DNA of 64,000 nucleotides from a virus (IMGVR_UViG_3300021431_000075:96001-160000), one strand, 5' to 3'. Numbered from the stretch's first letter, positions 5,142-63,291 are shown. Numbers and translations: made by a program. The notes: generated by a model not told the origin, from the letters alone.

Positions 5142-7748
5142 TCAATCATTCAAAGATTTCTCAACAACATCACATAGCACCATAACCAACCTCTTGAATG
5201 CATCACGAGATTTATTAGCACTCTCATTCTGCGCATGCTGCTGATTGCAGTTGTTCCATCCGTCATAGTATGCCTTTCTATATTCTTCGGAATTACCGTC
5301 CAGATTAACATTGTGATGACAATAGTCCGGCTTCTTCATCCTTGCAAGTTCAACAAGTTTCGTGGCACGAACCTTAACATAATTCATCAAATCGTTTTCT
5401 TCAAAAAAACCGTCATTGTGTTTCTGGTTCCAGAACGCAATTACTCTACCGAGTTCCTGAAAGAACTCATCATCAACAGAATCAATCAGATTCTTGTCAA
5501 CTTCATCTTTACAATCATCCATCTTAACAAGCATATTTTTATCAGAATCGAACTTCCATCCGGTCTTTTCCATTACGAACTGCAAATAGTCTATCTGCTT
5601 CTTGTCGGCAGGAACCATGTCTTCCGCCTTATGAGAAATATAATCCGATTCAGAATGCATGATATTCCCATAACTGTCCAGAGAGAAATATGTCTTGCAT
5701 ATTCCGTCCGTTACTTCCTTGAATATTACCGTATATCCATTCTTGTCATACAGAACATCACCCGGCTCCGCATCTGTTATATTCCAGATGTGGAACAAGT
5801 CGTCAATGACCACACATTCTCTCTCAACCACCTCGCCATCTGTGTATTCTATCTCATACATATCATCCTTGACTTTGAGAATCCGGGAAACTTTCAAAAC
5901 CCTACGCAAGTTCGATGCAATCCAGTCGCCTTCCTTGAACTTCTTATGTCTGCACACCATCCCTTGTTGACAATCATAGAAGCAATTGTTTCTTGAAAGT
6001 TCTTCATTGAACTTGGCAATCTCAGAATCATTAGCAAACTCGTATTCGCCGTTGCCAAAACACAATGTACAACCGTCACTCTTGACATACGAGCCGTTCT
6101 CTTCCTTGATGCACAATTCCCCAGTTGACTTAATTTTCAATATGTCTCCTGCCTGCACTTGACGCTTCTTTATTCTTTTGTCCTGCTCATCCCAGACAAA
6201 ACCGGCAATCCACATCTTATGATAGAAAACCTTGCGCTGCTCATCTGTTGCAAGAACATACAACCCATCGTGAGATTCTTCAAGAGTTCCCATATATGAA
6301 TTGTCATCATTGTTCATATATTTTCCATTGCCATTAACACAACCGAGATACTCGACACAGTTACAAACTGTGTCATATGCACGCTTATTTATTCTATAGA
6401 ATATAAACGTCGTGTCTTTCCGTTCAGAACCGGGTTCCGATTTCATAATGACAACGTCTCCATATTGAGCATCTTGAATTTTCCATTCAGCTGCTGCGGT
6501 TTCATCTTGTTTCTTTCCAAAACGAACGCTCTTGAAGTTATCTAACAAGTTCTCATAATAACGAATTTCGGATGAAAAGAAGAAACCGTATCTGTTCATT
6601 TCTTTCAACGAATACATGAGCCTGCTCATATGACAATCGTCATCTTCAGTCCATTCATAACCGTCATTAGCCTTATTGCCAAGTGAACGTAACCAGTTGG
6701 TCAAGTCGCTTATCATGTCTTTAGTCAGACCAAACTTCATCAATTCTTCATCACTGTCACCAAGACGGCAAAAAACAGATTCAATCTGGTTTGATGCATT
6801 TTCTACCGCACGGTTCCACAACTCGTTACTCAATCTCACTTTCAATATCGTGAAATCAAACACAAAACCAGAATCTTTCATCTTCTTCAGCATCAACATC
6901 TGCATATTTCTTGATGCCGGGCATACTTCATCGACAGTCCATAAACTTTCATCAGGTTGTGGAAACAGTTCAACCTTGAACTGATTGTTGTCATCCAGAC
7001 CACAGAAAGCACAGATGCCATTACCGTTCTCAAGTGTGTTACTATATATGAACGGCTCTTGATTCTTGATATTCACAAGAATGTCACCCGGCAGCGCATC
7101 CTTGATATTCCATTTATGGTACAACGAATCAACATCAGAAACATCCATCAGCATCACATCTCCGCTTGTATCCTCCAATGAATACTTTCGGTTTTTAACA
7201 GAATTGACTTTAAAAATCTTTCTTCCGAAAGAAATCCAATCATCCGGAGAAAACTTAAAAGTTTCAATCTCGTATTCGTCTGGCTGTTCTAACGATTCAG
7301 AAGATTCTTCTTCTATTTTAACCAGTTGCTTCGTTTCGGCATTCCATTCATATCCAGCATTATGAATCCATTCAAACAGTTTCTTCTTCTGTTCTGATGT
7401 CGCTGGAACATATCCCTTGGTGTCGTCATGAAATCCTCGCAAATTTAGTTCTTGTTCAAGACCATGTCCTTCAAGACCACAGAAGCAAACAAAAGATGAA
7501 GTTATTTCATCAATTCCATCAAAATGACAGAATATACAAATGCTATTGCTGTCTTCATTGAACAGAATATCTCCATTCACAACATCCAAGAAGGTCCATT
7601 TACGATAATTTTTCTCACAAGCAATGCCAATAAAACCATTATCGCAAACATAACCTTCTGAAGTTACATCCATAATTTTCATAGGAGACCTTTCGGTTAA
7701 ATCCTTCTTGACAACAAAATCTCCAATCTTGAATTTCTTTTTCTTCAT
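5142..7748 (-). CDS. modular repeat protein (4 WxIxDAxxGD...PAT modules)
   Basis: KWTFLDVVNGD, KWNIKDALPGD, EWKIQDAQYGD, IWNITDAEPGD. Confidence 0.8.
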   Translation of the reverse strand: MKKKKFKIGDFVVKKDLTERSPMKIMDVTSEGYVCDNGFIGIACEKNYRKWTFLDVVNGDILFNEDSNSICIFCHFDGIDEITSSFVCFCGLEGHGLEQELNLRGFHDDTKGYVPATSEQKKKLFEWIHNAGYEWNAETKQLVKIEEESSESLEQPDEYEIETFKFSPDDWISFGRKIFKVNSVKNRKYSLEDTSGDVMLMDVSDVDSLYHKWNIKDALPGDILVNIKNQEPFIYSNTLENGNGICAFCGLDDNNQFKVELFPQPDESLWTVDEVCPASRNMQMLMLKKMKDSGFVFDFTILKVRLSNELWNRAVENASNQIESVFCRLGDSDEELMKFGLTKDMISDLTNWLRSLGNKANDGYEWTEDDDCHMSRLMYSLKEMNRYGFFFSSEIRYYENLLDNFKSVRFGKKQDETAAAEWKIQDAQYGDVVIMKSEPGSERKDTTFIFYRINKRAYDTVCNCVEYLGCVNGNGKYMNNDDNSYMGTLEESHDGLYVLATDEQRKVFYHKMWIAGFVWDEQDKRIKKRQVQAGDILKIKSTGELCIKEENGSYVKSDGCTLCFGNGEYEFANDSEIAKFNEELSRNNCFYDCQQGMVCRHKKFKEGDWIASNLRRVLKVSRILKVKDDMYEIEYTDGEVVERECVVIDDLFHIWNITDAEPGDVLYDKNGYTVIFKEVTDGICKTYFSLDSYGNIMHSESDYISHKAEDMVPADKKQIDYLQFVMEKTGWKFDSDKNMLVKMDDCKDEVDKNLIDSVDDEFFQELGRVIAFWNQKHNDGFFEENDLMNYVKVRATKLVELARMKKPDYCHHNVNLDGNSEEYRKAYYDGWNNCNQQHAQNESANKSRDAFKRLVMVLCDVVEKSLND

Positions 7749-9010
7749 TTTTCTTTTCTAATATTAATTAGTGTATCAATCTTTCTTAATGTGTCGTCAA
7801 CCCACTGTTTAACTTCAGCAGTTTCTTTGCCGAAATCATCTTCTCTGATGGTCTTATCAAAATCAAACAATTTGTTCTTTATTGACAACAGAATAGACGA
7901 ATCATCGTTTCTTTCCCACTTCTCTATCTTAAACTTGGCAAAAGTGCTGTTAAAATCGCTTCTTTCTTGTGCATTTGCAGGGATGACTCCATCTGTCGAG
8001 ACTTGCCGTGAATCATCAACAAACATTCCTGTACTTCTATCATAAAAACAATATGTTTCGCATCTATCGACTGTTATAAGTTTCTTGAACTTAAATAAAT
8101 TTCCACTCTTATCTGCAAGAATGTCTCCATCCACGGCATCTGAAATCTGCCATTTCCTGTTGAACTTTAAGAAGATACTTTTCTGAATTATGAAATCCAT
8201 CCCAGTTATCGTACAAACTTTGACTGTATTTGAAGTCATCTTTTTCAGATAGAACGGTTCATTTGTTCTCACATCAAGAAACCAATCTCCTATATGCAAA
8301 ATGCTTTCATCTTCTTGTTCTCCGTACTTGACCAAATCTTTCTTTTTCTCGCTCCATCTAAGATCATTCTTCGTCATAAAATCGTAGAATATGTTTCGTT
8401 CCGTTTTATCGGCCGGATGAAACTCACTGCTCATTTCTGCTGAGCATTCAACATAATAGAAGATATAATAGAAGCTATTGCGTTTTTCATCAATGACAAG
8501 TTCATCTTCTAAACCATGATACAATGTCAACTCATACCCACAAACACAATTCTCATTGTCAAGTTCTTTCAGCATGACAATGTGTGTTTCTTTATCATCA
8601 GGCAATGCATAAGTAACAGACAGCAAATCTCCGGGCTTTGAATCTTTGCTCAATTCCCATAAGCGGCACTGACTTTCCAACTCGCTTTCTTTACATATTC
8701 CAGTCAAACCGTCTTCGACATAATCAACAAGATAGTCTCCATCATCACGAACATCAACAACTTTGAATACGTTTCCGCAATAATGAACAAACCAGTCACC
8801 GACCTTGTAGTTTGGAAGAACTTCGCTTTTTGAAGATTCATCGCCATCTGAATTACAAATCTCGACTATTTCGCCGTTCTTGTACTCAAATCCCTGTTCT
8901 TCAAGCGCGTCATCAATCCAAGTTTTCATTATTTCCGAATCAATGTTGTGGACTCTATAATAATGTTTTATAGCGGACGCGATAAACTTAATATAATCAA
9001 ACTTTGCCAT
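7745..9010 (-). CDS. modular repeat protein (2 modules, N-terminal DF...ALxxQG domain)
   Basis: Start revised to MAKFDY; two GDW/DA-GD/PA units. Confidence 0.75.
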   Translation of the reverse strand: MAKFDYIKFIASAIKHYYRVHNIDSEIMKTWIDDALEEQGFEYKNGEIVEICNSDGDESSKSEVLPNYKVGDWFVHYCGNVFKVVDVRDDGDYLVDYVEDGLTGICKESELESQCRLWELSKDSKPGDLLSVTYALPDDKETHIVMLKELDNENCVCGYELTLYHGLEDELVIDEKRNSFYYIFYYVECSAEMSSEFHPADKTERNIFYDFMTKNDLRWSEKKKDLVKYGEQEDESILHIGDWFLDVRTNEPFYLKKMTSNTVKVCTITGMDFIIQKSIFLKFNRKWQISDAVDGDILADKSGNLFKFKKLITVDRCETYCFYDRSTGMFVDDSRQVSTDGVIPANAQERSDFNSTFAKFKIEKWERNDDSSILLSIKNKLFDFDKTIREDDFGKETAEVKQWVDDTLRKIDTLINIRKEK

Positions 9011-10370
9011 TTTCATCAGAATTATAAATTGTCTTAATCTTCTCAATCGAATCAAACACAATCTTCTGTTTTTCAAACAAATCGTATTTCTTGTGAATTA
9101 TATCACAAAATGCATCTTTCCGTTCAAACGACGCAGGAACCGTATCTACAACATTATGAATGCCGTTGCATTTCAAATCGAGCACCTTCTCATCACTGCT
9201 CAAATAAACGCACGAATGCCACTTGTTTATGTCTATCAATGATTCAAAAAATCCAATAACGCCGGAACCATCAATCAAGACATCTCCGGGCTTTGCATCA
9301 TTGATTGTCCACTTATGAAAATTGCAATCAACATAAGTAACGTATTTCTTATGACTACACTCATCACGTTGAGATTTCAATATATATTTAAACTTTGAAA
9401 TATCCTTTTTAATTACATCTTCAACAAAATAAACATTGCCGTCTGGATCGACAATCCAATCTCCGGGATGAAACTTCTGATCAACCTGTTCTTCTATATT
9501 TTTACTTTCACAATGGCAACCAATTTCTGAATTTGCAAAATCAGACTGTTCGTTGCCATCAATCTTCACAATTTTCTTATTGGCAAAATCAAAAGCATAA
9601 CCGTTTGAACGAAGCTCGTTAAGCAACATCATTTTCTGATTAAAGACAGCCGGAACGACATTTGTCATATAATGCGCCCTACCGCCAAGTGACAGTCCAT
9701 ATTCTTTCATCGGATTGTAATAAACAAAAGAATACCATTTAATGTTGGAAATCTTGTCAAAAATTCCAATATTTCCATGCATGTCCATGAGAACATCCCC
9801 TCTATTTGCATCATAGATTGTCCACCTACGAAACTCCGAATCTACATATTTCACATAATGAGTGAGCTTTGCGCCATTTGTACTTTCCAACACATAATAT
9901 GGCTTCAAATTTGCATTGTCAGTATCACAAACTTCAACAACTATATATGGTTCTTCTTTTCTGAAAATCCAATCTCCGGGTTGAAACTTCAGTGTTTCAG
10001 GTTTATTAGTTTCTTTCACCAAAGAAAAACAATCACAAAAAGAAGTAACATCGATAGACTTGGTATCTCTTATCAGATACGCGTTTCCTGTCAAATGATC
10101 ATCTTCTTCCGACAAGTATTTCTTGCCGACTTCAAACATAAATTCCGGTGTTCCCGTATATAAGACAGACTTTATACAGGTGTACCAGTTACCTGCCTTG
10201 ATTTCACAGTCTTTCTTCTGTTCAACAATCTCGTTGTTGACGATTTCAAAACCCTGCTCATTCAAGGCACCATTCAACCAGTCTCTCAACACCTTCCCGG
10301 CAGGAAACGAGTTCGTTCCCTTAACAAGAGACTTCAAAAGCAAACCAAAGTCAATATTTGGAGTTTTCAT
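8997..10370 (-). CDS. modular repeat protein (2 modules, N-terminal DF...ALxxQG domain)
   Basis: KFQPGDW...RWTIYDANRGD; KFHPGDW...KWTINDAKPGD. Confidence 0.8.
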   Translation of the reverse strand: MKTPNIDFGLLLKSLVKGTNSFPAGKVLRDWLNGALNEQGFEIVNNEIVEQKKDCEIKAGNWYTCIKSVLYTGTPEFMFEVGKKYLSEEDDHLTGNAYLIRDTKSIDVTSFCDCFSLVKETNKPETLKFQPGDWIFRKEEPYIVVEVCDTDNANLKPYYVLESTNGAKLTHYVKYVDSEFRRWTIYDANRGDVLMDMHGNIGIFDKISNIKWYSFVYYNPMKEYGLSLGGRAHYMTNVVPAVFNQKMMLLNELRSNGYAFDFANKKIVKIDGNEQSDFANSEIGCHCESKNIEEQVDQKFHPGDWIVDPDGNVYFVEDVIKKDISKFKYILKSQRDECSHKKYVTYVDCNFHKWTINDAKPGDVLIDGSGVIGFFESLIDINKWHSCVYLSSDEKVLDLKCNGIHNVVDTVPASFERKDAFCDIIHKKYDLFEKQKIVFDSIEKIKTIYNSDENGKV

Positions 10371-28017: not shown

Positions 28018-28021
28018 GTAA

Positions 28022-41903: not shown

Positions 41904-42088
41904 CAGCAAATATTTTTCTTTGAAATAGAAAATCCAAACTTTTCAAACTGCTCACAAAACCGCTCGTTTAACAATGCAATAGCATCAAGAACGCCGCGCC
42001 TATATATGTCACTGACTCTCTTGTCTTTGAAATTATCGGAACTGTTCTTGAAATGACAGACAAGATTATCAACATCTTTTTGCGTCAA
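40744..42088. repeat. 170-bp direct repeat (40744-40913 and 41919-42088)
   Basis: About 90% identical; shared C-terminal domain LTQKDVD...ISK. Confidence 0.9.
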
Positions 42089-44011: not shown

Positions 44012-44019
44012 TGGTTCTT

Positions 44020-46682: not shown

Positions 46683-46716
46683 TGCAAATATATTGACTTT
46701 TTTATTTTCTTGCAAC
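46683..46716 (-). promoter_or_regulatory. leftward Bacteroidota-type promoter at the strand switch
   Basis: TATATTTGCA -7 element. Confidence 0.7.
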
Positions 46717-46877
46717 AAAATCAAAAAAATTCTACACATTTTTGACATTCTTTAACATCATGGATGATTTCATCAGATTGTGTTCACATCATTTAACTAC
46801 TAAAAAACCAAAATATAAAAAAGCCTAAATTCAGAAACAAAACTATCAAAAAATTTTCTTAATAACAGGTTTATTAC

Positions 46878-46887
46878 TATTTTTGCA
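46878..46887 (+). promoter_or_regulatory. rightward Bacteroidota-type promoter
   Basis: TATTTTTGCA -7 element. Confidence 0.65.
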
Positions 46888-49708: not shown

Positions 49709-50755
49709 ATGGAAAAGATTGACTTTGAAAAAATCCTTGCCGAACTATTAACTACCGGCACTAAACAAAACAAAAACTACATCAAGAGTTTCTTGGAACA
49801 GCGCGGCATCGAGTTCAAGAACAACACGTTCTCGCTTATAAGCAATGAATCCATGAGTATAAAACCAGAATCAACAGACACAAAAGTCATTACCGGAAAG
49901 TACAAGCCCGGAATGACTGTGTTCAACACGATTCGAAGCAGAGCATACATCGTCAAAGATGTATATTTCGAGAATCGAAAAAAGATGCTGTTGCTTATAG
50001 ATGCGTTAAACGGAGAGAAGAACACGACAGCATCAACAAATCCGGCATTGAGAAGATGGAACATTTCAGATGCCAAGATTGGAGACTTCATCTGCACCGA
50101 GAACTTTGTATTCATATTCAATGGCTTCAGACTGGACAAGGATACGCTCAAATGGAACGTTCACTACAAATGCGCAGCTGAATTACACAATCATGAAGAT
50201 GACGATCCTTTCCACATCCCTGCTCCACAAGCGCATATGGGGACGAAGAAAGATACAGATTTCAGAATAGCGACCGAGCAGGAACGGCTGTATCTATTGG
50301 AAGAAATCGAACGTCACGGTTACACTTGGAATCATGAAACCATAGAACTTGAAAAACATCCGTATTTCAAATACAACATCGGAGACTGGGTTGTATATAG
50401 AGATAACGGAGAATTGTGGAAAATTGAAAACGTAGTCAACCACAAATACTCGATGACTATGCAAGACGGAACAGAGAAAGCATTTGATTGTGACTTCGTG
50501 AACTATTGTTCTGACAAATGGTCAATCAAGAATGCGCAACCGGGAGATGTCTTGTATTACACGATGCCGAACGGAGACGAAATATTGGCTGTGTTCGAAT
50601 CTTTCGGAAGCAAGTTCCACAAACTCAGCATCGCATTCTGCACAACTACGGATGAAATCACAACAAACGTTCTAATCGACCCGGAACTTGTCATAGAACC
50701 GGCAACAGACGAACAGAAGCAGTGGCTGAAAGATGTCATAACAAAAACGAAATAG
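49709..50755 (+). CDS. modular repeat protein (2 modules)
   Basis: IDFEK N-terminus; RWNISDAKIGD, KWSIKNAQPGD. Confidence 0.8.
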   Translation: MEKIDFEKILAELLTTGTKQNKNYIKSFLEQRGIEFKNNTFSLISNESMSIKPESTDTKVITGKYKPGMTVFNTIRSRAYIVKDVYFENRKKMLLLIDALNGEKNTTASTNPALRRWNISDAKIGDFICTENFVFIFNGFRLDKDTLKWNVHYKCAAELHNHEDDDPFHIPAPQAHMGTKKDTDFRIATEQERLYLLEEIERHGYTWNHETIELEKHPYFKYNIGDWVVYRDNGELWKIENVVNHKYSMTMQDGTEKAFDCDFVNYCSDKWSIKNAQPGDVLYYTMPNGDEILAVFESFGSKFHKLSIAFCTTTDEITTNVLIDPELVIEPATDEQKQWLKDVITKTK

Positions 50756-50903: not shown

Positions 50904-52502
50904 ATGAAAAAGACAGCGATAGACTTCGAGCGTTTGCTCATGGACTTCTTATCGACCAAGCCGAATGACGGTTCCATCATCGAAACTCTTCTTATGAACC
51001 AGGGAATCGTCATAAAGGATGGTGAATTTGTCCGTTCAAAGAAAAATGCCAAAAACATAAACATAGAAAAGACAAAACGCCAATTCAATCCGGGCGACGT
51101 CATCATAAACGTTTCTGATATAGCACAGATTCCATACCGAGTGACCGGCTATGACAGAGACATGATTCTTGCAAAAAACATCCGAACCGGAAAGAGTTGT
51201 TCATTTCCTGACACTGCTCCACTACGAAACTGGCTTATAACGGATGCAACAAGAGGCGACATCCTTGTATGCAAGAACACTGTGTTCATGTACAAGAATC
51301 TTGCATGGGATTTCAGGACAGACAAAACAAAAGTGATGTACATCTGCATGACACTTCTCACTGAAATAGAATATCATGACAACTTCCAGTTTCCATCCGA
51401 AGAATCACACATCGGATTCGTTGAACTGGACAAATTCAGATTCGCGACAGACGATGAATGCAATTTCCTTATCGAAGAAGCCAAGAAACACGGTTACGAA
51501 CTGACATCCGACCACCGCGGTTTCACACATACAAGCGTGAAATATCCAGCAGGAACATGGATTGTCGACGATAGCGGCAACAAAACAGTGTACAAGGTCA
51601 TCGACTTCTACAAAGACAACTACTTGCTTATGACTGTCGATGAAAAAATAGTCTGGAAAGAAAATGCTTACATCAGCAAACAACAAAACATACACAGATG
51701 GTCTATTGCGGATGCGAAACGCGGAGATGTCTTGCATATCAAAAAAGACAAAACAACGAATTATGAATATCTCGTAATTTTTGAAACGTATCTCAATCAA
51801 TTCTTTGCCAAATGCCCGGTCATATACTGCTTGAGCACAAATGACTTTAATTGTCTGCCGTCAAATCCGTTGTCATCAGACAACATCGAACCTGCAACAA
51901 CAAACCAGTCAAAATATTTGTTCTCTCTTATGGAACAGAAAGGAATCGATTTGAAAGACGTCCTGCAACCAGAGAAACAAGAAGCCGACAGCAAGCATTC
52001 CGTTGAAACAAATTCACAAGAATGGAATATTGAAAATGCCAATGAAAATGACATAATCCTGATTTCCGGATACAAACATTTTTATAATTCGGAACCATTG
52101 GACTGGATAGCAAGAATCAAAGAAATCAACAAAGGGATTCTGCGCACATCTGCTCTCAACAAGCAAAAGGGCAAGTTGTTCGATAACATTTCATTCGGAA
52201 TAACAGACAGAAATAGCTATGACTATATCAGGCTTGCTAATGCAGATGAAGTACTTATGTTCTATAATGCACAAAGGAAGAATGCAGTATCATCAAGACA
52301 AGAATACAATGAAAAGATTCTTGCGTTGATTAAGTCTTTTCTTGCTGAAAATCCAGACATAAGGTTCAATCAACTGATTGCAGATATGAATTCTGATGCA
52401 TCAGAAGATGTGTTTGCAGAAGAGCCAAAAACAACATACGAAAGATTCAAAAAATATATAGAAAAAACAAAAGAACAAAAACATCATTATGTCAACAACT
52501 GA
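50904..52502 (+). CDS. modular repeat protein (3 modules)
   Basis: NWLITDATRGD, RWSIADAKRGD, EWNIENANEND. Confidence 0.8.
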   Translation: MKKTAIDFERLLMDFLSTKPNDGSIIETLLMNQGIVIKDGEFVRSKKNAKNINIEKTKRQFNPGDVIINVSDIAQIPYRVTGYDRDMILAKNIRTGKSCSFPDTAPLRNWLITDATRGDILVCKNTVFMYKNLAWDFRTDKTKVMYICMTLLTEIEYHDNFQFPSEESHIGFVELDKFRFATDDECNFLIEEAKKHGYELTSDHRGFTHTSVKYPAGTWIVDDSGNKTVYKVIDFYKDNYLLMTVDEKIVWKENAYISKQQNIHRWSIADAKRGDVLHIKKDKTTNYEYLVIFETYLNQFFAKCPVIYCLSTNDFNCLPSNPLSSDNIEPATTNQSKYLFSLMEQKGIDLKDVLQPEKQEADSKHSVETNSQEWNIENANENDIILISGYKHFYNSEPLDWIARIKEINKGILRTSALNKQKGKLFDNISFGITDRNSYDYIRLANADEVLMFYNAQRKNAVSSRQEYNEKILALIKSFLAENPDIRFNQLIADMNSDASEDVFAEEPKTTYERFKKYIEKTKEQKHHYVNN

Positions 52503-55366: not shown

Positions 55367-58138
55367 ATGGAAACGAACTCGAACAACTCAAACAAAAACT
55401 CATTACAGAAACTGGAAGAGTGGATCAGCAATTTCAGAAAAACGGCAACCGGACCGAAGGTGCAGGTATTTGATGCAGCAGCTGACAAACTGCTCGACTT
55501 GATATACTTTCTCGACAAATCGTTTGCAAATAACAGCAATGAAACAGAAAACAACGGCTCGGAAAAACTGAAAAATATGGGAGAAGTATCCGACGGCTAC
55601 CATACGTTCAACGAACTGTACTATTACAGGATGCTCTACAATGCCGCTTTCTTCAACCTGCTTCCGAAGGACATGGTCCATAAGAGCAAGAGGCACCATA
55701 CAGGAGAAGAATGCTTCGGCGGCGGATGGTTCATCGTTATGGCAAATCTTCCGACTGGTCAGATAAGCAATCACTATGAACTCAAGGACTGGGACCTATT
55801 CCAGATTCCAGAAAAGGAATGCGCTGACGAATGGGACGGACACACTCCGCAGCAGGCGGCAGAAAAACTGCACGAGTACCTGCTCATGACACAGGATAAG
55901 AAATACAATCTTTCCTCCGAATCAACAGTTCAGGAAAATCAGACAGAATATAAAGTCGGGGACTGGGTCGTTTTCGATCACACCACAAATGTAATCACTG
56001 AGCTACCCAAGAACGGATACGTAAACGTCGAGATTAGAAGATATGCACATGCCGGTTCGAAAACTCTAATAACACAGCATGTACCGATTACGTACATTCA
56101 CAAATGGACTCTTGACGATGCCCGTCCCGGAGACGTGCTTACACTTGAAACAGAGAACCAGAAATGGACGTTCATCTACAACAAAATCGTAAAGAAATCG
56201 GCAGATCTTCCGTTCGACACGCTGAAATACTATGCACTATTAACGGAAGAAGAATTCCTTGATAATGGAGTGGCAAGTCTGTGTGAAGATTGCAGATCCG
56301 AAAATTTCCGCCCGGCAACACAGGTAGAACAGGACATATTCTTCTCTGAAATGAAAGAATCTGGATACGAGTGGGACTGGGTGAATCGTGAGGTGAAAAA
56401 GACTGTTGAAACATCCGCCGATGCAGTGAACACAAAAACAGAGAAGCATAAGCCATTGTTCGAAATCGGCGACTGGGTTGTTCATGACTTGACCACTGGT
56501 GTTCCTGCAATCCGCAAAATCATCGACATGACTAACAAGTCGTATGTTCTCGACGGCGATTGCTTCAACAGCTTCTATTTCAAAGACTTGGAAGAGTCGT
56601 TCCGTCTCTGGACTATTGAAGATGCGCGTCCGGGCGATATTCTTGCAGCACACGAATGCTATGTAATGTTCAAGGAAATCGACGGTCTGAACATAAGATG
56701 CTTCTGCACTTATCACTATATGAATCACCAGTCGTTCTACTTGAACACACTGCAGAACAAGACAGCATTCCATCCAGCAACAGAAGAAGAATGCAAGGAA
56801 ATGCTATCGAAAATGAAAGAAGAAGGATATGCATTTGATTCAGTGCATAATGACTTGATTAAAATTCAGAATGGCACTCCGGATGAAAGCAAAGAACCCG
56901 ATGACGAGACAATACGAAAAACTCTCATCAATCTTGTCAGATGCAATGAGAGAAGCGGTTATACACTGCTTGACAATGTCAAGACAAGTGCAATGATTGA
57001 ATGGCTTGAAAAGCAGAAAGAAACCAACACAAAATCATCTATTGCATTGTCCATTATGAACTTTCTGGACAAAAACACACAGAAAATGTGTCTGTCCAAT
57101 ATGGAATGCGAAGATTTGGAAAATGCAGTCAACAATTCAGACTGGGCTAAAGTCTATCGCTACATGAAGAAGAAACTTGAACCGAAAGACAGCAAGCCGG
57201 CAATGGAATCACAAAAAGAGTCCGCTGCCAATAACAGCAAGATAAAGCCAAAATTCAAGGAAGGCTCTTATGCAGTTTCCGATATAGACAAGAAAGCAAG
57301 ACTCGTTTCAGAAGTCCATTGCGATGAAACAAACTGCTACTATCTGATCAACGGATTAGTGTATGACATCGAAGCTTATGACAAACTGCATCACAACTGG
57401 TCTATTAATGATGCACACACTGGAGATATTCTTGTTGCATCCGATAACTCTGTTTTCATCTTCAACGGAATCAAAGACAACCATGCATTGTATTATGCTG
57501 CAATGACAATGGACGGCTTTGTTCAGATAAGCGACGGCATGCATGCATGGGAAGATGTTCAAGGCTGCCATCCGGCAACAAGAAAACAGTGTCAGTTATT
57601 ATTCGAGTTAATGTACCGAATCGGCTATACCTGGGATGAAACAGCAAAAATGCCGATAAAGTCATCAACAGATAACCGTTCTGCATGCAAAGCATTGTGC
57701 AACATCGGAGACTGGATTGCAACAAAGCAGCATTATGCACTGAAAATCATAGGCATCACAACAGACGAATATATCACATCAGAAAATTCGGATGGAGATG
57801 AAATCGAATCATCGGAAGAAATAGAATTTGTTGACAGAAACTACCACATCTGGACCATCGATGATGCAAGAAACGGAGATATCCTTGCAAACAAAGACAG
57901 GATATTCATTTTCAGGAAAAGCGATCATACCAAGCCGACCAAGGATATTCGCTCTTATTGTCACTATGATATAGAAACAGACTCATTTGAAGAAGATGAT
58001 GAATTCTTTACGCTTCCGCTTGGTATGAAAGTTCAACCGGCAACAGCAGAACAATATAATACATTCTTCAAGAAGATGAAAGAATCTGGTTACGATTGGG
58101 ACGAAACGATAAAAGAACTGAACAAACTCGAAGATTAG
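55367..58138 (+). CDS. modular repeat protein (4 modules) with N-terminal WDGH-motif domain
   Basis: SDGYHTFNELY...GQISNHY...WDGHT, then four modules. Confidence 0.85.
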   Translation: METNSNNSNKNSLQKLEEWISNFRKTATGPKVQVFDAAADKLLDLIYFLDKSFANNSNETENNGSEKLKNMGEVSDGYHTFNELYYYRMLYNAAFFNLLPKDMVHKSKRHHTGEECFGGGWFIVMANLPTGQISNHYELKDWDLFQIPEKECADEWDGHTPQQAAEKLHEYLLMTQDKKYNLSSESTVQENQTEYKVGDWVVFDHTTNVITELPKNGYVNVEIRRYAHAGSKTLITQHVPITYIHKWTLDDARPGDVLTLETENQKWTFIYNKIVKKSADLPFDTLKYYALLTEEEFLDNGVASLCEDCRSENFRPATQVEQDIFFSEMKESGYEWDWVNREVKKTVETSADAVNTKTEKHKPLFEIGDWVVHDLTTGVPAIRKIIDMTNKSYVLDGDCFNSFYFKDLEESFRLWTIEDARPGDILAAHECYVMFKEIDGLNIRCFCTYHYMNHQSFYLNTLQNKTAFHPATEEECKEMLSKMKEEGYAFDSVHNDLIKIQNGTPDESKEPDDETIRKTLINLVRCNERSGYTLLDNVKTSAMIEWLEKQKETNTKSSIALSIMNFLDKNTQKMCLSNMECEDLENAVNNSDWAKVYRYMKKKLEPKDSKPAMESQKESAANNSKIKPKFKEGSYAVSDIDKKARLVSEVHCDETNCYYLINGLVYDIEAYDKLHHNWSINDAHTGDILVASDNSVFIFNGIKDNHALYYAAMTMDGFVQISDGMHAWEDVQGCHPATRKQCQLLFELMYRIGYTWDETAKMPIKSSTDNRSACKALCNIGDWIATKQHYALKIIGITTDEYITSENSDGDEIESSEEIEFVDRNYHIWTIDDARNGDILANKDRIFIFRKSDHTKPTKDIRSYCHYDIETDSFEEDDEFFTLPLGMKVQPATAEQYNTFFKKMKESGYDWDETIKELNKLED

Positions 58139-58143
58139 CGATT

Positions 58144-60465
58144 ATGGACAATAAACTAAAATTCAATATCGGCGACTATATCGCAAATGACTATTGCTTC
58201 GGAAAAGTGATAGAAATCACAGATGATGCTTATCTGTTGGACACCGGACAGGGAATCCCGTTCTCTTGTGAGCATAATGCACATATCTGGACCATCACCG
58301 ATGCGAAAGATGGGGATGTGCTTGCAGATGAATACGGCACGATAATCATGTACCATTCTATGTGTTCGGTTGGCAATGCAAACGTACACTGCTGCATAGA
58401 GAACGGGAAATTCATTGCCAGAAACATCGGAGTGTTCGAAACCGAGAACTTCCATCCAGCGACAATAGAGCAGACAGAATTGATGTTATCCAAGATGAAA
58501 GAATCTGGATATGAGTGGAATGCCGAGAAGAAAGAACTGAAACCAATTAGCAAACCAAAATTCAATGCCGGAGACTGGGTTATAGACAACCTTGGTTTTG
58601 TCTGGAAAATCGAATCCATTGAACAAAATCTATATCACATTTGCGATTCCGAAGGCGTTGAGTCATTACCTGATATAGTTTGGGCAGACAATCATTTCCG
58701 TCTTTGGAGCATCACTGATGCAAAAGACGGTGATGTGCTTATTGAAGATTCTTGCATTTTTATTATTCAAAAATTGGGTGATAATAGTAATGCTGCGAAA
58801 ACATATTGTACATTACATGATGATGGCGATTTTGTTGACGGTTCAATATTATATTTTGATATAGATAGTACTAAACCAGCCACCAAAGAACAGCGTGACA
58901 TCTTAATCCAAAAGATGCATGAAGCCGGCTATGAGTGGGATGAAGAGAAAAAAGAGATTAAGAATGTAAAAATGGAAAGTGAGATTATTGAAAAGTTCAT
59001 AGTTGGAAAATGGTATACATGCGTAAAGGATTTCTTTGACAAGAGTGTCCATTTCGACAAAGGAACCGCATATTTTTGTTCAGGAGAAGAAAGGCTGGAA
59101 GCAGAAGACGGAAATCATGTCTGGATTCCTGAGAACTCGTACAGCAACTTCAAGCTCTGGAGCATTTCTGATGCAAAGAAAGGCGACATACTTGTACATA
59201 ATGATTGTACATTTATCTTTATGGGAATCAAGGACGGCATAGTACAAGCTATCGAGGAGAATATGCTTGAACCTATATCTTTTGGCGAACCGGACAAAGA
59301 CAATGATTATCATCCAGCCACCAAAGAGCAATGCGAATCGCTGTGCCGGAAAATTGCGGAAGCCGGTTACACTTGGAATCAGGAAAAGAAGAAAATAGAG
59401 AAGATTGGAGAAACTCCTGATGAAAACAAAGAGTTGAAACCGATTGACAAACCAAGATTCAATGTCGGAGACTGGGTTATAGACAACCTTGGTTTTGTCT
59501 GGAAAATCGAATCCATTGAACAAAGTTTATATCACATTTGCGATTCAGAAGGCGTTGAGTCGTTACCTGATATAGATTGGGTGAACAATCATTTCCGTCT
59601 TTGGAGCATCCAAGATGCAAAAAAAGGTGATATACTTTTTCAAGATTTAATGGGTGGATTTACATTTATTTTTGATGGATTCGACTCAGAAATGGCAATA
59701 TTGTATTCTTTTATTATAAGTAATGATGGCGAAGATGTTTTGCCATATCATATAGGGAAACCAAATACAGGTATAGGATATGTTGAAGAAGCAGGCATTA
59801 TCTACCCAGCCACCAAAGAACAACGTGCGTTGATATTTCAAAAAATTGCGGAAGCCGGTTACACTTGGAATCAGGAAAAGAAGAAAATAGAGAAGATTGG
59901 AGAAACTCCTGATGAAAACAAAATCCAGCCGAAGTTCAAGGCAGGGGATGTGATAGTCCATAAACTGTCGATGAAGATGGGTTCATCATCTTGGGTTTCT
60001 GGAAAAATCGAGAAAATAGAAGGTGATAGATACATCTTCACAGACGGTTCTTATTTCTTCATCAAGGAACAAGACGAATGGGCTTTCTTTGAACATATGC
60101 CGACAGAAAATACAATCAAGCCGAAGTTCAAGGCAGGGGACTGCATTGTTCATTCTACATGGAAAGACATATATCCACATTCATCTTGCGGAACAATCAA
60201 GGAAGTCAAGGATGACAGATATATCTTCGAAGACGGTAGTTATATCAAGATGTGTGACCAAGACTTATGGGAGTTGTCAAAACCAAAAGATGACGACTGC
60301 AGCAACAAATCATCCGACAACGGTCTGCGTTATGCATTGTCAATCCTTGAGCAGTCTCTCGGAATCGTTCCGGGCTATCAGACAAATGACGGCTTATTAA
60401 AGCACAAGCAGGCAATTGCCGCTGTGAAGAATGCATTGAAGCAGAAGTCATCACAATCTGACTGA
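58144..60465 (+). CDS. modular repeat protein (4 modules) with internal duplications
   Basis: Start revised to MDNKLKFNIGD. Confidence 0.85.
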   Translation: MDNKLKFNIGDYIANDYCFGKVIEITDDAYLLDTGQGIPFSCEHNAHIWTITDAKDGDVLADEYGTIIMYHSMCSVGNANVHCCIENGKFIARNIGVFETENFHPATIEQTELMLSKMKESGYEWNAEKKELKPISKPKFNAGDWVIDNLGFVWKIESIEQNLYHICDSEGVESLPDIVWADNHFRLWSITDAKDGDVLIEDSCIFIIQKLGDNSNAAKTYCTLHDDGDFVDGSILYFDIDSTKPATKEQRDILIQKMHEAGYEWDEEKKEIKNVKMESEIIEKFIVGKWYTCVKDFFDKSVHFDKGTAYFCSGEERLEAEDGNHVWIPENSYSNFKLWSISDAKKGDILVHNDCTFIFMGIKDGIVQAIEENMLEPISFGEPDKDNDYHPATKEQCESLCRKIAEAGYTWNQEKKKIEKIGETPDENKELKPIDKPRFNVGDWVIDNLGFVWKIESIEQSLYHICDSEGVESLPDIDWVNNHFRLWSIQDAKKGDILFQDLMGGFTFIFDGFDSEMAILYSFIISNDGEDVLPYHIGKPNTGIGYVEEAGIIYPATKEQRALIFQKIAEAGYTWNQEKKKIEKIGETPDENKIQPKFKAGDVIVHKLSMKMGSSSWVSGKIEKIEGDRYIFTDGSYFFIKEQDEWAFFEHMPTENTIKPKFKAGDCIVHSTWKDIYPHSSCGTIKEVKDDRYIFEDGSYIKMCDQDLWELSKPKDDDCSNKSSDNGLRYALSILEQSLGIVPGYQTNDGLLKHKQAIAAVKNALKQKSSQSD
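58531..59922. repeat. internal duplications: 58531-58725 ~ 59428-59622 and 59350-59430 = 59842-59922
   Basis: ~195 bp highly similar; 81 bp identical. Confidence 0.9.
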
Positions 60466-60523: not shown

Positions 60524-61612
60524 ATGGAAAACTTTAATGTGAACCTCGAAGAATTAGTCTCAGACTATAATTCAAACACATCTTCAAAAGATGCAACAAT
60601 AAACGACATGCTTGAACACAATAACTTCATGTGCGAAAACCCGTATAATCCAACAGGTTCAATCACAAGAAAGTATGACATCAAGAAAAGCGACTACATA
60701 TTCAATGAAGATTTCAAGGAAACGTTTCTCGTGACTGATGAAAATAATATGTTCATCACTGCAAAAAACATCAAGACCGGAGAAGTCAGCAGGTTCCTGA
60801 AAACATGCAAGACAATTCAACAATGCCCGGTTATTCCGAACACAATACACACATGGTCAATCAAGGATGCGAAAGCATTTGATGTGATAGCAACAGACAA
60901 TTTCGTTTTCATGTTCAAGCAGATGAATGAGTATACCGGCGCAGTGTTTTGCTATTGTGCGGCTCTACTTTCCAGAATCAACCAGAATGACGAAAACGCT
61001 TTCATGATTCCTGCTAAGAATGCAGTCATCGGAACATCAGAACACACGTCTTATCGACCAGCTACGGAAGAAGAGACAAAATATCTCTTGGATGAACTCG
61101 ACATGCACGGTTTGGAAATGAACTATGACAAGAACTATTTAACATGGAATGATAAAAACCATGAGAATTCCTCGATAATACACAGATGGATTATCGATGC
61201 AAAAACAAACGAATTATTCAGAGTTGCCAGTTTCTACAAAGACGAATTCACGATTGAGCATAAAAACGGAAGCACATTCAAGAAAGACGCAGAACTTGTA
61301 AGAACTCTTCTGAAGAACAACGAGTACAGGCGCTGGGATTTTTTAAATGCAACTATAAATGTCGGAGATGTCTTTGTCCAAACACACGGCAATGACGAAT
61401 GGCTTTATATGGCGACAGAACTCGTTGGTTCGAAAATGACATTTGTTGAATTTTATGCAAATACAGGAAAATTTGCAAAGAAAGAATGGCATTTATCTCC
61501 GGAGAACTATAACAAATTAGGTTATGCAATCGATCCGGCTACAGACTTCCAAAAAGAACAGATGATTTCTCTGATGAAAGACAGCGGTTATAAAGTTCCA
61601 GAACAAATTTAA
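60524..61612 (+). CDS. modular repeat protein (2 modules)
   Basis: TWSIKDAKAFD...PATEEE; PATDFQ. Confidence 0.8.
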   Translation: MENFNVNLEELVSDYNSNTSSKDATINDMLEHNNFMCENPYNPTGSITRKYDIKKSDYIFNEDFKETFLVTDENNMFITAKNIKTGEVSRFLKTCKTIQQCPVIPNTIHTWSIKDAKAFDVIATDNFVFMFKQMNEYTGAVFCYCAALLSRINQNDENAFMIPAKNAVIGTSEHTSYRPATEEETKYLLDELDMHGLEMNYDKNYLTWNDKNHENSSIIHRWIIDAKTNELFRVASFYKDEFTIEHKNGSTFKKDAELVRTLLKNNEYRRWDFLNATINVGDVFVQTHGNDEWLYMATELVGSKMTFVEFYANTGKFAKKEWHLSPENYNKLGYAIDPATDFQKEQMISLMKDSGYKVPEQI

Positions 61613-61983: not shown

Positions 61984-63291
61984 ATGAAAACCGATAACGA
62001 ATATCTTGAACGAGCAAGAGAAATCATTTCAACTGCCGACATAAGGGACAACAGCATTGCAATAATGGCAATCAAATATATATTCCCTGAACTCAATCAA
62101 GAGAATACAGGTGATGATGCAAAAAATCCGAAAAATGCAAGTGATGATGCAAAAAGCAGAAACCATAAAGACAACCGTGTTTTCCCAGTAATCGCAAGAG
62201 AGAACAAGACTGGAAAACTCATAATCATCAACGGCGGACAGCTTGACGACTGTTCAGACGAATATATCAAATATGTATCCGATGACGGTTATCATGTGTA
62301 CAATCCAGATGAAATCATATTCTATGACGAATGCGAGAACGATTCAGAGAAAAAGAAAGAAACCGGCGACTTCAATGTAGGAGACTGGATTGTAGAAGAA
62401 CTATCCGGAGAATGGCTTGTTGTGACTGATGAAAAGCAATTCACATACACAGCAGAGACCATCAGCGGAAAGCAATTCATCATCCAGAAAGACAGAACAA
62501 AACATAACGGTTATCACAGATGGACGCTGGATGACGCAAGCTCCGGAGATGTTCTTGCAGACTATGTTCAGAACTGTGACAATCCGCTCATCTTCATCTT
62601 AAAGGACTTCAAGCATATCAAGTACAATCTTGTCAAGGAATCTGACTACCACTCTTTCTGCTATCTCAAAGCCAATGAAAGACAGCAGTTCTGTACAGGC
62701 AGCTGGCATCACATCCATGACTTGAAACCCGCTACTGCAAAGCAGCAAGAACTTCTGTTCAACAAAATGAAAGAAGCTGGTTATTCTTGGAAACCTGACA
62801 CTCTCGAATTGACAAAAACAAAACTTGAAACGAAGTTTAAGATTGGCGACTGGATTACTGATAGACAAACTACTGTACAAATTTCCGAAATAGATAACAC
62901 TATTGATGGTTGTTACCGTTGCATTAACGGAAACCACGGATTTGGCACATTTGTTATTGAAATTGCAAAAGCAGACGAAACATTTCATATTTGGACAATA
63001 GAAGATGCCAAAACTGGAGATGTGCTTGCAACAAAATATGCTATTTTTATTTTTAAGCATATGGATATAGCAAGATTAAGTCTTTTTAGTGTATGCAGGT
63101 CATATTGCGAAGTGATAGGTGATTCTGAATTAAGCTTGGGATTTGATTTTCCTCTAAATGACATTCACCCAGCACCAGCAACTAAAGAACAGAAAAATCA
63201 GTTATTCAAAAAAATAAAAGATGCTGGTTATGAATGGAATCCGGTTACTCTCAAATTGACAAAAAATGAACTCTGGATAGTCTCGAATTGA
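61984..63291 (+). CDS. modular repeat protein (2 modules)
   Basis: RWTLDDASSGD, IWTIEDAKTGD. Confidence 0.8.
   Translation: MKTDNEYLERAREIISTADIRDNSIAIMAIKYIFPELNQENTGDDAKNPKNASDDAKSRNHKDNRVFPVIARENKTGKLIIINGGQLDDCSDEYIKYVSDDGYHVYNPDEIIFYDECENDSEKKKETGDFNVGDWIVEELSGEWLVVTDEKQFTYTAETISGKQFIIQKDRTKHNGYHRWTLDDASSGDVLADYVQNCDNPLIFILKDFKHIKYNLVKESDYHSFCYLKANERQQFCTGSWHHIHDLKPATAKQQELLFNKMKEAGYSWKPDTLELTKTKLETKFKIGDWITDRQTTVQISEIDNTIDGCYRCINGNHGFGTFVIEIAKADETFHIWTIEDAKTGDVLATKYAIFIFKHMDIARLSLFSVCRSYCEVIGDSELSLGFDFPLNDIHPAPATKEQKNQLFKKIKDAGYEWNPVTLKLTKNELWIVSN

What the first reader, a model, noticed from the sequence alone, without database searches (positions are those of the whole stretch)
5142..63291. 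Large, unrecognised modular protein family: about 35 modules in 14 genes (about 22 kb)
Seen: a ~130-150 aa unit recurs with fixed anchors (KFxxGDW, WxIxDAxxGD, PATxEQ...GYxW) and highly divergent sequence between them. It occurs in 1-4 copies per gene, on both sides of the strand switch, often right behind a host-type promoter, and mixes freely with other small modules. No catalytic motif or signal peptide is visible. Inference: these are strings of small SH3/Tudor/KOW-like barrels forming a diversified early-expressed binding repertoire, for example anti-defence decoys or host-takeover adaptors. This is the best candidate for an undescribed system in the window.
Basis: partly seen in the sequence, partly recalled or inferred. 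Interest (0 to 1): 0.8.

Follow-up and report, generated by a model that had tools for sequence, protein, structure and literature searches.

The report
Uncatalogued double-barrel module family in megaphage
A 673-kb gut or rumen phage carries about 51 copies of a 150-residue protein module that no curated protein-family library lists; the module is common in Bacteroidota phages, sits among non-structural genes, and probably forms a set of binding proteins whose targets are unknown.

Summary
A profile built from the WxIxDAxxGD anchors finds 35 modules in 15 genes (22.8 kb) of the window. It finds 51 modules in 24 genes across the 673-kb phage genome.

AlphaFold2 (pLDDT 95.7) shows each module as a Tudor/SH3-like barrel, then an Sm-like barrel, then a strongly conserved helix plus beta-hairpin.

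- Pfam, PHROGs, NCBIfam and PDB sequences hold no matching family.
- The profile hits 7,577 protein clusters in metagenomes, almost all unnamed.
- The family is phage-borne: 1-9 matches in 15 other phage records, Bacteroidaceae prophages (including cultured Prevotella sp. tc2-28), and one crAss-like phage. It always lies among non-structural genes.
- The proteins have no signal peptide or membrane segment and no recognisable enzyme domain.
- They sit behind host-type promoters and lack the phage-specific promoter motif.
- Orthologues are under purifying selection (dN/dS about 0.2). There is no reverse transcriptase, but modules and genes are gained, lost and recombined between relatives.

Function is untested. 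The most likely role is an early, cytoplasmic repertoire of binding or adaptor proteins.

The scan has reported similar SH3-like paralogue arrays in other phages, but not this family.

The parts
5142..7748 (-). Family gene, 868 aa, 4 modules (7284-7748, 6798-7301, 6123-6737, 5490-6116) plus a C-terminal tail with no family match
   Evidence: HMM domains of 89-135 bits; no Pfam family
7745..9076 (-). Family gene, about 423-443 aa, N-terminal head (IDF..LL...EQGFE) plus 2 modules (8300-8887, 7850-8329)
8997..10370 (-). Family gene, 457 aa, N-terminal head, a GxWYxC-type barrel and 2 modules (9522-10073, 9009-9533)
20241..20945 (-). Family gene, 234 aa, 1 module (20346-20888)
   Evidence: 79 bits
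21014..21045 (-). Host-type (Bacteroidota) promoter-like site, TTTG-N-TAnnTTTG, upstream of gene 20241-20945
   Evidence: a motif match only, no expression data
33945..34802 (-). Family gene, 285 aa, 1 module (34290-34802) plus a C-terminal extension
   Evidence: 99 bits
34834..34864 (-). Host-type promoter-like site upstream of gene 33945-34802
40713..41909 (-). Family gene, about 396 aa, 2 modules (41388-41909; 40887-41399, weak at 30 bits). Its C-terminal tail is shared with the next gene (repeat D5).
41903..44032 (-). Family gene, about 702 aa, GxWYxC-type barrel plus 3 divergent modules (43118-43666, 42617-43147, 42131-42640)
   Evidence: 51-88 bits
45221..45679 (-). Small gene, 152 aa, N-terminal head plus a half module (second barrel region, 45230-45460). 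Weakest member.
   Evidence: 22.9 bits, HMM positions 77-143; head similar to that of gene 7745-9076
46685..46715 (-). Host-type promoter-like site heading the minus-strand arm at the strand switch
46855..46885 (+). Host-type promoter-like site heading the plus-strand arm at the strand switch
47507..49534 (+). Family gene, 675 aa, 3 modules (47909-48448, 48398-48874, 48854-49318)
   Evidence: 131-153 bits
49649..49680 (+). Host-type promoter-like site upstream of gene 49709-50755
49709..50755 (+). Family gene, 348 aa, head plus 2 modules (49838-50371, 50351-50752)
50904..52502 (+). Family gene, 532 aa, head plus 2 modules (51030-51545, 51525-52001) plus a tail with no family match
55367..58138 (+). 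Family gene, 923 aa, N-terminal WDGH domain (about 55580-55876) plus 4 modules (55886-56434, 56402-56896, 57182-57694, 57650-58135). A TAnnTTTG box lies at about 55325-55332.
   Evidence: PF25311 at 127.7 bits; modules at 122-138 bits; promoter box
58144..60465 (+). Family gene, 773 aa, 4 modules (58144-58557, 58543-58983, 58966-59436, 59416-59922) plus two first-barrel-only units (59902-60099, 60058-60279)
   Evidence: 114-157 bits. The module at 58543-58983 was modelled.
60524..61612 (+). Family gene, 362 aa, 2 divergent modules (60605-61180, 61142-61609)
   Evidence: 61 and 37 bits
61984..63291 (+). Family gene, 435 aa, 2 modules (62296-62829, 62812-63276)
   Evidence: 137 and 132 bits
63415..64000 (+). 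Start of a further family gene (585 aa, runs to 65172). Its module lies just beyond the window (64207-64725).
   Evidence: 153 bits
48935..49068 (+). Recombination tract shared with 59053-59186 in another family gene 10 kb away (124 of 134 nt identical). It ends at the WSISDAK hinge.

Best explanation
SHOWN. The window holds 35 copies, in 15 genes, of an uncatalogued phage-borne protein module of about 150 residues. Each module has three parts:
- a Tudor/SH3-like barrel that starts at KFxxGDW;
- a hinge, WxIxDAxxGD, leading into a second, Sm-like barrel;
- a very conserved PATxEQ helix followed by a GYxW beta-hairpin.

Modules are chained 1-4 per protein with short linkers. They are combined with other small barrels, a shared N-terminal head and, in one gene, a WDGH domain.

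The proteins are mildly acidic (median pI about 5.2, close to the rest of the proteome). They have no signal peptide or membrane segment and no recognisable enzyme domain. Their genes lie in a part of the genome served by host-type (Bacteroidota TAnnTTTG) promoters and nearly free of the phage-specific [AG]ATAAATA motif. In prophages and a crAss-like phage, relatives lie between or next to replication genes, never among the virion genes annotated in those stretches.

INFERRED. These are non-enzymatic cytoplasmic proteins made before or apart from the virion genes. They act as a repertoire of target-specific binding or adaptor proteins. The hypervariable strands and loops of the two barrels would give each module its own ligand, probably host or phage proteins, for example in host takeover or counter-defence. 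The constant hinge and helix-hairpin would hold the module together or dock on a common partner.

The repertoire grows and changes by duplication, loss and recombination at the conserved anchors, not by hypermutation. Each established copy is then kept by purifying selection.
For: - Family and counts.
- Fold: AF2 pLDDT 95.7 and pTM 0.87 for the whole module, 93.2 for the second half. The first barrel matches UvrD, PcrA, CarD and TraI Tudor-like barrels at Z 6.4-7.3 over about 50 residues. The second barrel matches Sm/LSm proteins at Z 6-7 over about 60 residues.
- No enzyme or known family.
- Soluble. Mild acidity.
- Promoters: the [AG]ATAAATA motif lies upstream of 124 of 609 genes genome-wide, of 2 of 84 window genes and of no family gene. 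Host-type boxes head the family operons.
- Context elsewhere: the Prevotella sp. tc2-28 prophage has the gene after an S24 repressor, helicase-loader-like, SMC-like, HNH and metallo-beta-lactamase genes. Three other Bacteroidaceae prophages place it between RecT or DnaD-loader genes and a terminase or helicase-methylase gene. In crAss-like phage cr116_1 it lies in the small-gene and tRNA cluster before the replication genes. Two metagenomic contigs place it beside DNA methyltransferases.
- Constant frame, variable surfaces: in 660 metagenomic modules only the three anchor blocks are conserved.
- Selection: dN/dS is 0.03-0.07 in anchors and 0.20-0.37 in variable parts.
- Turnover: 51 modules here against 1-9 matches in 15 other phage records of 87-410 kb, most of them at least 90% complete. 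A strain at 97% identity has an extra one-module gene. A relative at about 82% identity has 3 modules where this genome has 4, and 3 where it has 2.
Against: - Nothing shows binding to any partner, and the ligand class is unknown.
- The structural matches (Z about 7) are in the range that the tool itself calls a common arrangement. They identify a superfold, not a function.
- Timing rests on promoter-like motifs and gene order only. I could not show that [AG]ATAAATA is strictly 'late': it heads the operon holding the Gp23-like capsid gene, but also genes for an exonuclease-like and an ATPase-like protein.
- No site or segment shows dN/dS above 1. An arms-race reading is therefore supported only by turnover of copies.
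- The strong conservation of charged residues in the helix-hairpin could mean a single common function rather than many targets.
Confidence: 0.45

Rival explanations
1. The modules are RNA- or DNA-binding units. This would resemble Sm/Hfq, KOW or Tudor-like domains, or the LSm-like T4 early proteins GoF, MotB.1 and Frd.2. The proteins would tune RNA stability, translation or transcription during infection.
For: The second barrel is closest to Sm/LSm proteins. The first is closest to barrels found in nucleic-acid enzymes and RNA-polymerase partners (UvrD, PcrA, CarD, NusG/Spt5). T4 has early LSm-like proteins with a suspected RNA role (PMC12152347).
Against: The proteins and modules are acidic (median pI about 5.2, modules mostly 4.5-5.8). 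No Pfam match to LSM, KOW or CarD_TRCF_RID was returned. The conserved residues are hinge and helix positions, not barrel-loop positions such as those that bind RNA in Sm proteins (and general knowledge of Sm proteins). Chained modules cannot form the Sm ring in the usual way.
Confidence: 0.15
2. The proteins are multivalent scaffolds that self-assemble or condense. They might, for example, organise a replication or assembly compartment in the very large infected cell. The conserved helix-hairpin would be the shared contact.
For: There are many tandem modules per chain, short linkers and many paralogues. The helix-hairpin has conserved exposed-type charged residues. The expansion is largest in the largest genome.
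Against: One-module versions exist in ordinary temperate prophages and in a 101-kb crAss-like phage, where no such compartment is expected. There is no evidence of oligomerisation.
Confidence: 0.1
3. The proteins are carried in the virion as internal, ejected or decoration proteins.
For: Earlier, unchecked notes of this scan propose large virion-loaded protein families in the same genome (e1-5708085). Small barrels do occur in capsid decoration proteins.
Against: There is no shared N-terminal leader. The phage-specific motif that heads the capsid operon is absent from all family genes. In prophages the genes lie upstream of the terminase, next to recombination and replication genes.
Confidence: 0.08
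4. The expansion is largely neutral or selfish. A recombination-prone module would be multiplying in a genome with slack capacity, without a distinct function for each copy.
For: Sub-module recombination tracts and rapid gain and loss of copies.
Against: Orthologous copies are under purifying selection equal to their neighbours, with dN/dS about 0.2. All in-window ORFs are intact. The family is kept in 7,577 clusters across many phage lineages.
Confidence: 0.1

Closest known systems
T4 early 'LSm-like fold' proteins GoF, MotB.1 and Frd.2 (Kim et al. 2025, PMC12152347)
   Same: They are phage proteins of early or non-structural regions built on a small Sm/SH3-type barrel. They have no enzyme domain, are very divergent in sequence and were recognised only through structure prediction. 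Their function is still unclear.
   Different: Those are single small proteins of one barrel in T4-type coliphages. Here a fixed three-part unit (Tudor-like barrel, Sm-like barrel, helix-hairpin) is chained up to four times in proteins of 200-900 residues. No sequence similarity to them was tested or claimed.
Tandem Tudor, KOW or SH3-like barrel pairs (53BP1, UHRF1 and BAHCC1 tandem Tudor; Spt5 KOW6-7; kin17)
   Same: Two consecutive small five-stranded barrels act as one binding unit. These are the best Foldseek matches to the whole module.
   Different: TM-scores are only 0.25-0.35 with rmsd 6-12 Å, so the mutual arrangement of the barrels differs. No aromatic cage or KOW motif was identified. 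The helix-hairpin has no counterpart. No homology is shown.
Bacterial RNA-polymerase-binding Tudor-like domains (CarD and Mfd RID; UvrD and PcrA C-terminal domain)
   Same: These are among the best structural matches to the first barrel (7egs_B at Z 7.3, 2.2 Å over 51 residues; 4l5g_A at Z 6.9).
   Different: They are tied within 1 Z unit with many unrelated barrels (MscS, TraI, histone readers). No Pfam CarD_TRCF_RID match was returned. This is a lead for a binding test, not a family assignment.
Expanded SH3-like mini-protein arrays in other large phages, as noted earlier by this scan (e1-5710142, e1-5810647, e1-5771007, e1-267519)
   Same: They are lineage-specific expansions of small barrel proteins in early regions, kept by selection and of unknown function.
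   Different: Those are other families made of single-barrel mini-genes. This family is multi-domain, chained, and spread through Bacteroidota phages from prophages to a 673-kb genome. The notes are unchecked.
Pfam DUF4250 (PF14056) and PHROG 1945
   Same: The PATxEQ helix region gives repeated weak DUF4250 matches. Summed scores are 28.6 bits in gene 58096-60465 and 34.3 bits in P0307, against a cut-off of 27. The first barrel of 5 of 32 modules matches phrog_1945, with a best E-value of 6.4e-5.
   Different: No single stretch passes on its own. Each family covers only a fragment of the module, and both have unknown function.

Membership tests
Tudor / 'royal family' barrels | Five-stranded SH3-like barrel | tested here: met
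   AF2 model strands 12-54. VIA-align gives Z 5.8-6.9 to Tudor domains over about 50 residues at rmsd about 2-2.5 Å. This is in the range of a common fold.
Tudor / 'royal family' barrels | Aromatic cage that reads methyl-lysine or methyl-arginine | not tested
In the first barrel only F5, W10 and Y29 are conserved.
CarD/TRCF RNA-polymerase-interacting domain (PF02559) | Profile match above Pfam's threshold | tested here: not met
   No match was returned for 10 full proteins or 32 modules at E up to 1. Structural similarity of Z 6.7-6.9 is tied with unrelated barrels.
Sm/LSm (PF01423) | Profile match with Sm1/Sm2 motifs | tested here: not met
   No Pfam LSM match. The fold of the second barrel resembles Sm at Z 6-7, rmsd 2.3-2.8 Å over 57-63 residues.
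KOW (PF00467) | KOW motif / profile match | tested here: not met
   No Pfam match. Foldseek lists Spt5 KOW pairs only at E of 2e-3 or weaker, with TM about 0.3.
Bacterial SH3b cell-wall-binding domains (PF08239, PF06347 and others) | Profile match, and export or fusion to a lytic enzyme | tested here: not met
   The only hit was one SH3_2 match at E 0.11 in 1 of 32 modules. There is no signal peptide or membrane segment and no enzyme domain.
DUF4250 (PF14056) | Score above the curated cut-off (27 bits) | tested here: inconclusive
   Whole-protein sums are 28.6 and 34.3 bits, but no single stretch is significant. Only the helix region (profile positions 22-53 of 55) aligns.
PGDYG (PF14083) | Score above the curated cut-off (27 bits) | tested here: not met
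   12-14 bits, E 0.05-0.25.
Targets of diversity-generating retroelements | Reverse transcriptase in the genome and adenine-specific mismatches between template and variable repeats | tested here: not met
   No RVT_1 match in the 673-kb genome. Mismatches in the repeated tracts involve all bases.
New family proposed here (double-barrel + helix-hairpin module) | KFxxGDW barrel, WxIxDAxxGD hinge and PATxEQ...GYxW helix-hairpin in this order within about 150 residues | tested here: met
   32 aligned modules with W55 invariant and D59, A60, G63, D64 and P112 at 90% or more. The same blocks are conserved in 660 metagenomic modules.

The most novel reading that the evidence does not exclude
Bacteroidota phages keep a combinatorial library of intracellular binders, functionally comparable to an antibody or ankyrin-type repertoire. 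Each double-barrel module would recognise a different host protein, for example a defence sensor or effector or an RNA-polymerase or replisome part. All modules would share one constant docking element, the helix-hairpin, that hands the bound target to a common phage or host partner. The 673-kb phage would have expanded this library five- to fifty-fold, to cope with many hosts or many defence systems.
Probability: 0.15. Interest if true: 0.85.

Novelty: new variant of a known kind. Interest (0 to 1): 0.5.

Why it matters
The module is one of the larger uncatalogued protein families of gut and rumen Bacteroidota phages. It has 7,577 clusters at 50% identity, 1,818 of them at E of 1e-30 or better. 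It takes about 36% of this 64-kb window and is found from temperate Prevotella prophages and a human-gut crAss-like phage up to a 673-kb megaphage.

A confident structural model now exists. A cultured host strain, Prevotella sp. tc2-28, carries a one-module gene in a prophage. The family can therefore be named, added to domain libraries and tested directly.

If the modules prove to be target-specific binders, they would explain part of what very large phage genomes are used for. They would also give a new scaffold for studying phage-host conflict in Bacteroidota. If they are not, the finding is still a clean annotation of about 3.5-4% of this genome.

Tried and rejected
- **Curated libraries.** Pfam, PHROGs and NCBIfam scans of full proteins and of all 32 modules gave no family for the module. 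A PDB profile search gave only chance-level hits.
- **Structure searches.** Foldseek against PDB gave no hit at E of 1e-3 or better for the whole module or its second half. The VIA-align second look found no whole-module match, only single-barrel matches at Z of 7.2 or less. The ESM Atlas gave only unnamed clusters below the 0.9 score.
- **GenBank phages.** tblastn against 50,697 records found nothing at E 1e-3. At E 1 it found only cr116_1. Bacteroides phage crAss001 has no match to the profile.
- **Fused domains as functional clues.** The only fusions seen were WDGH, one GNAT and one DUF6098, and none is informative. PF26890, PF26820 and PF26707, seen on four relatives, are not in the local Pfam copy and could not be identified.
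- **Alternative genetic code.** Code 4 doubles the summed ORF length, but code 11 already gives 90% coding density. This is an artefact of removing a stop codon.
- **DGR-type hypermutation.** Rejected.
- **Strong acidity of a DNA-mimic type.** Rejected: pI is about 5, close to the proteome median of 5.4.
- **Labelling [AG]ATAAATA as strictly 'late'.** Not achieved. Genes behind it include exonuclease-like and ATPase-like genes as well as the capsid operon.
- **Database scans.** The search for related loci with alignment A1 failed because no stretch was conserved enough. A single-module query found no relative in species-representative genomes.
- **Literature.** Searches for 'WDGH' and for megaphage paralogue families found no description of this module.


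Full report
**Setting**

The window is bases 96,001-160,000 of a 673,114-bp virus record with direct terminal repeats, rated 100% complete. Under the standard code about 90% of the genome is coding. The apparent gain under code 4 is an artefact. The capsid gene is of the T4 Gp23 type. Earlier notes of this scan call the phage a relative of the Lak megaphages; I did not check this.

**Observation**

The hinge motif W.[IVL].DA..GD occurs 28 times in the translated window. As a DNA pattern it occurs 24 times in the genome, against 0 for the reversed control.

An HMM seeded on these sites finds 54 domains in 24 ORFs. After two more rounds it converges on 51 modules of at least 20 bits in 24 ORFs. 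Of these, 35 modules in 15 ORFs lie in the window, and a sixteenth gene starts at 63415 with its module just outside. The 15 genes add up to about 22.8 kb.

The other copies lie at genome positions 160-167, 187-196, 258 and 329-339 kb.

Alignment A1 of 32 modules has only 20% mean column identity. It has an invariant Trp and near-invariant D-A, G-D and P.

**Anatomy**

AlphaFold2, using only the 32 paralogues as its alignment, gives a very confident model (pLDDT 95.7, pTM 0.87). The elements, in order, are:
- a first barrel (strands 12-54, starting at KFxxGDW);
- a short helix at the DA(K) hinge;
- a second barrel (strands 65-104);
- a helix (115-127, PATxEQ...);
- a beta-hairpin (130-141, GYxW...K.L).

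The second half modelled alone is equally confident (93.2).

Structure searches give the following.
- Foldseek against PDB returns only weak hits to tandem Tudor, KOW and SH3-like pairs (E of 2e-3 or weaker, TM 0.25-0.35).
- VIA-align places the first barrel next to UvrD/PcrA Tudor domains, CarD, TraI and MscS barrels (Z 6.4-7.3, about 50 residues).
- VIA-align places the second barrel next to Sm/LSm proteins (Z 6-7, about 60 residues).
- By the tool's own notes these values mark a common superfold. They support 'small SH3-type barrels' and nothing more specific.
- No solved structure matches the whole unit or the helix-hairpin.
- In BFVD the best matches are uncharacterised phage proteins, including one from crAss-like phage cr116_1.

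Besides complete modules, the genes contain several other elements. These are first-barrel-only units, an alternative first barrel (GxWYxC...), a shared N-terminal head (IDF..LL...EQGFE) and a shared C-terminal tail in two neighbouring genes. One gene carries a WDGH domain (PF25311).

**Not catalogued**

Pfam-A, PHROGs and NCBIfam have no family for the module, whether whole proteins or all 32 modules are scanned. The only recurrent signals are fragments. DUF4250 matches the helix, with summed scores just over the cut-off and no single significant stretch. phrog_1945 matches the first barrel of 5 modules. A profile search of PDB sequences finds nothing.

**Distribution**

The profile hits 7,577 representatives of 50%-identity clusters at E of 1e-3 or better. 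Of these, 5,913 reach 1e-10 and 1,818 reach 1e-30. Among about 270 listed relatives almost all are unnamed metagenome proteins without precomputed Pfam domains. They carry 1-6 modules per protein.

IMG/VR holds at least 133 matching stretches. The 78 listed loci lie on contigs of 5-410 kb. In 15 other phage records of 87-410 kb, most of them at least 90% complete, I count 1-9 matches each, against 51 here. The expansion is therefore specific to this lineage.

In 401 genomes of the host family of Prevotella sp. tc2-28, only 5 have a match. The one full module is in a prophage of that cultured strain. Three of the other four were examined, and each has a half module (second barrel plus helix-hairpin) in a prophage.

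GenBank phages give a single relative. This is crAss-like phage cr116_1 protein QOR59347, confirmed with the profile at 43.6 bits. Phage crAss001 has none. A 410-kb contig filed under a 'Firmicutes' rumen MAG (RUG343) also carries five matches and is listed in IMG/VR as a virus.

**Context and timing**

None of the family proteins has a hydrophobic stretch that could be a signal peptide or membrane helix, whereas 68 of 609 genes in the genome do. Their charge is unremarkable (median pI 5.2 against 5.4).

A k-mer screen of upstream regions recovers a phage-specific motif, [AG]ATAAATA, often extended to ATAAATATCTTATAATA. It lies 30-50 nt before 124 of 609 genes. It heads the operon that contains the capsid gene. 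It also heads exonuclease-like and ATPase-like genes, so I call it phage-specific rather than strictly late.

In the window this motif precedes only 2 of 84 genes, and none of the family genes. Bacteroidota-type boxes (TTTG...TAnnTTTG) stand before four family genes. They also stand on both sides of the strand switch, heading the two arms.

In the tc2-28 prophage the gene follows the S24 repressor, helicase-loader-like, SMC-like, HNH and metallo-beta-lactamase genes. In three other prophages it lies between RecT or DnaD-loader genes and a terminase or helicase-methylase gene. In cr116_1 it lies in the cluster of small genes and tRNAs before the replication genes. Two metagenomic contigs place it beside DNA methyltransferases.

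All of this points to expression from host RNA polymerase, outside the virion programme. No transcript data were available.

**Evolution**

Compared with a 97%-identical strain (L109), family genes have dN/dS 0.197 and their neighbours 0.229.

| Comparison | Anchor positions | Variable parts of modules | Non-module parts |
|---|---|---|---|
| dN/dS range over L109 and L107 | 0.03-0.07 | 0.20-0.37 | 0.28-0.31 |

So the copies are conserved once established, and there is no diversifying signal at this resolution. The genome has no reverse transcriptase, and the repeated tracts lack adenine-specific changes. A diversity-generating retroelement is therefore excluded.

Change happens at the level of parts.
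- L109 has an extra one-module gene.
- In the relative at about 82% identity (L107), the orthologue of 58144-60465 has 3 modules instead of 4. The orthologue of 61984-63291 has 3 instead of 2. Gene order differs, and several additional family genes have no close counterpart here.
- Inside the window, tracts of 117-226 nt at 87-93% identity are shared between otherwise about 30%-identical modules. One such tract links genes 10 kb apart and ends at the hinge codons.
- Across 660 metagenomic modules only three blocks are conserved: EPKFKVGDW, HLWTIxDAKDGDVL and PATKEQRDLLFxKMKEAGYEWDxEKKELKKI. Most barrel strands and loops are free to vary.

**Interpretation**

The following is shown: a real, very large, phage-borne and uncatalogued module family. 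It is built from two small barrels and a constant helix-hairpin. It encodes soluble non-enzymatic proteins in the non-structural part of phage genomes. It is strongly expanded here, and it evolves by shuffling and by gain and loss of copies under purifying selection.

The following is inferred, at about 0.45: the family is a repertoire of specific binding or adaptor proteins acting in the infected cytoplasm. This could serve host takeover or counter-defence.

The rivals are:
- nucleic-acid binding in the manner of Sm/KOW proteins or the T4 LSm-like early proteins (PMC12152347), which the acidic charge and the lack of motifs argue against;
- multivalent scaffolding;
- virion cargo, which promoter class, lack of a leader and prophage position argue against;
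- a largely neutral expansion, which selection argues against.

**Relation to earlier notes**

Notes from the same window on module shuffling (e1-5708103, e1-5708115) agree. The scan has described expanded SH3-like mini-protein arrays in several other phages. By sequence look-up, this family was noted only in this genome.

**Verdict**

The fold inference and the 'undescribed' claim are supported, and the functional guess is untested. This is a new, widespread variant of a recurring but unexplained phage theme. It is of moderate interest and is experimentally reachable through Prevotella sp. tc2-28.

Noticed in passing
genome-wide; in the window only upstream of 12861-14795 (-) and 36885-38297 (-): A phage-specific promoter-like motif, [AG]ATAAATA (often ATAAATATCTTATAATA), lies 30-50 nt before 124 of 609 genes. 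It is almost absent from genome positions 100-160 kb. It heads the operon holding the Gp23-like capsid gene (genome 29,977-32,100), and also exonuclease-like and ATPase-like genes.
   Followed up: partly
window 27136-28516: Three tandem copies of a 460-nt unit (85-87% identical, the third copy 60% in part). They correspond to three adjacent small paralogous minus-strand genes of about 141-168 aa that are unrelated to the module family.
   Followed up: no
window 52838-52898 and 53426-53486: A 61-nt direct repeat, 98% identical, 588 nt apart, near or across the ends of genes 52489-52839 and 53087-53527. Its purpose is unknown.
   Followed up: no
window 12861-14795 (-): A 644-aa protein with WG_beta_rep repeats (PF14903, E 2e-26). 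It is one of only two window genes behind the phage-specific motif. Earlier notes describe a large WG-repeat family next door.
   Followed up: no
window 35509-36528 (-), 39201-39923 (-), 10382-11023 (-): A DUF7666 protein (E 2.7e-29), a weak PRAI-like match (23.5 bits, just over the cut-off) and a weak DnaJ zinc-finger-like match. All are accessory genes among the family genes.
   Followed up: no
window 53989-54408 (+): The orthologue of this gene in the close strain L109 carries a precomputed YopX (PF09643) match. A YopX gene also lies near the family gene in the Prevotella sp. tc2-28 prophage (L019 13811-14179).
   Followed up: no
L022/L023 (ONIZ01000001.1, 410,106 bp, 'uncultured Firmicutes bacterium RUG343'): This contig of a rumen MAG carries five matches to the module profile. 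It is the same length as IMG/VR record 2799112330_000002, so it is probably a huge-phage genome binned into a bacterial MAG.
   Followed up: partly
P0360 (L019 8357-10090), residues about 320-520; also the C-terminus of the genome gene at 164,796-167,453: A second recurrent short unit, '(K/N)PAWSEED...', is repeated several times downstream of the module. An 'ESEGERIR' N-terminal motif is shared by P0360 and P0344. These may be further uncatalogued modules travelling with this family.
   Followed up: no
L019 5915-6646: The tc2-28 prophage has a metallo-beta-lactamase-fold gene 1.7 kb upstream of the family gene. It has a faint precomputed Anti-Pycsar Apyc1 match.
   Followed up: no
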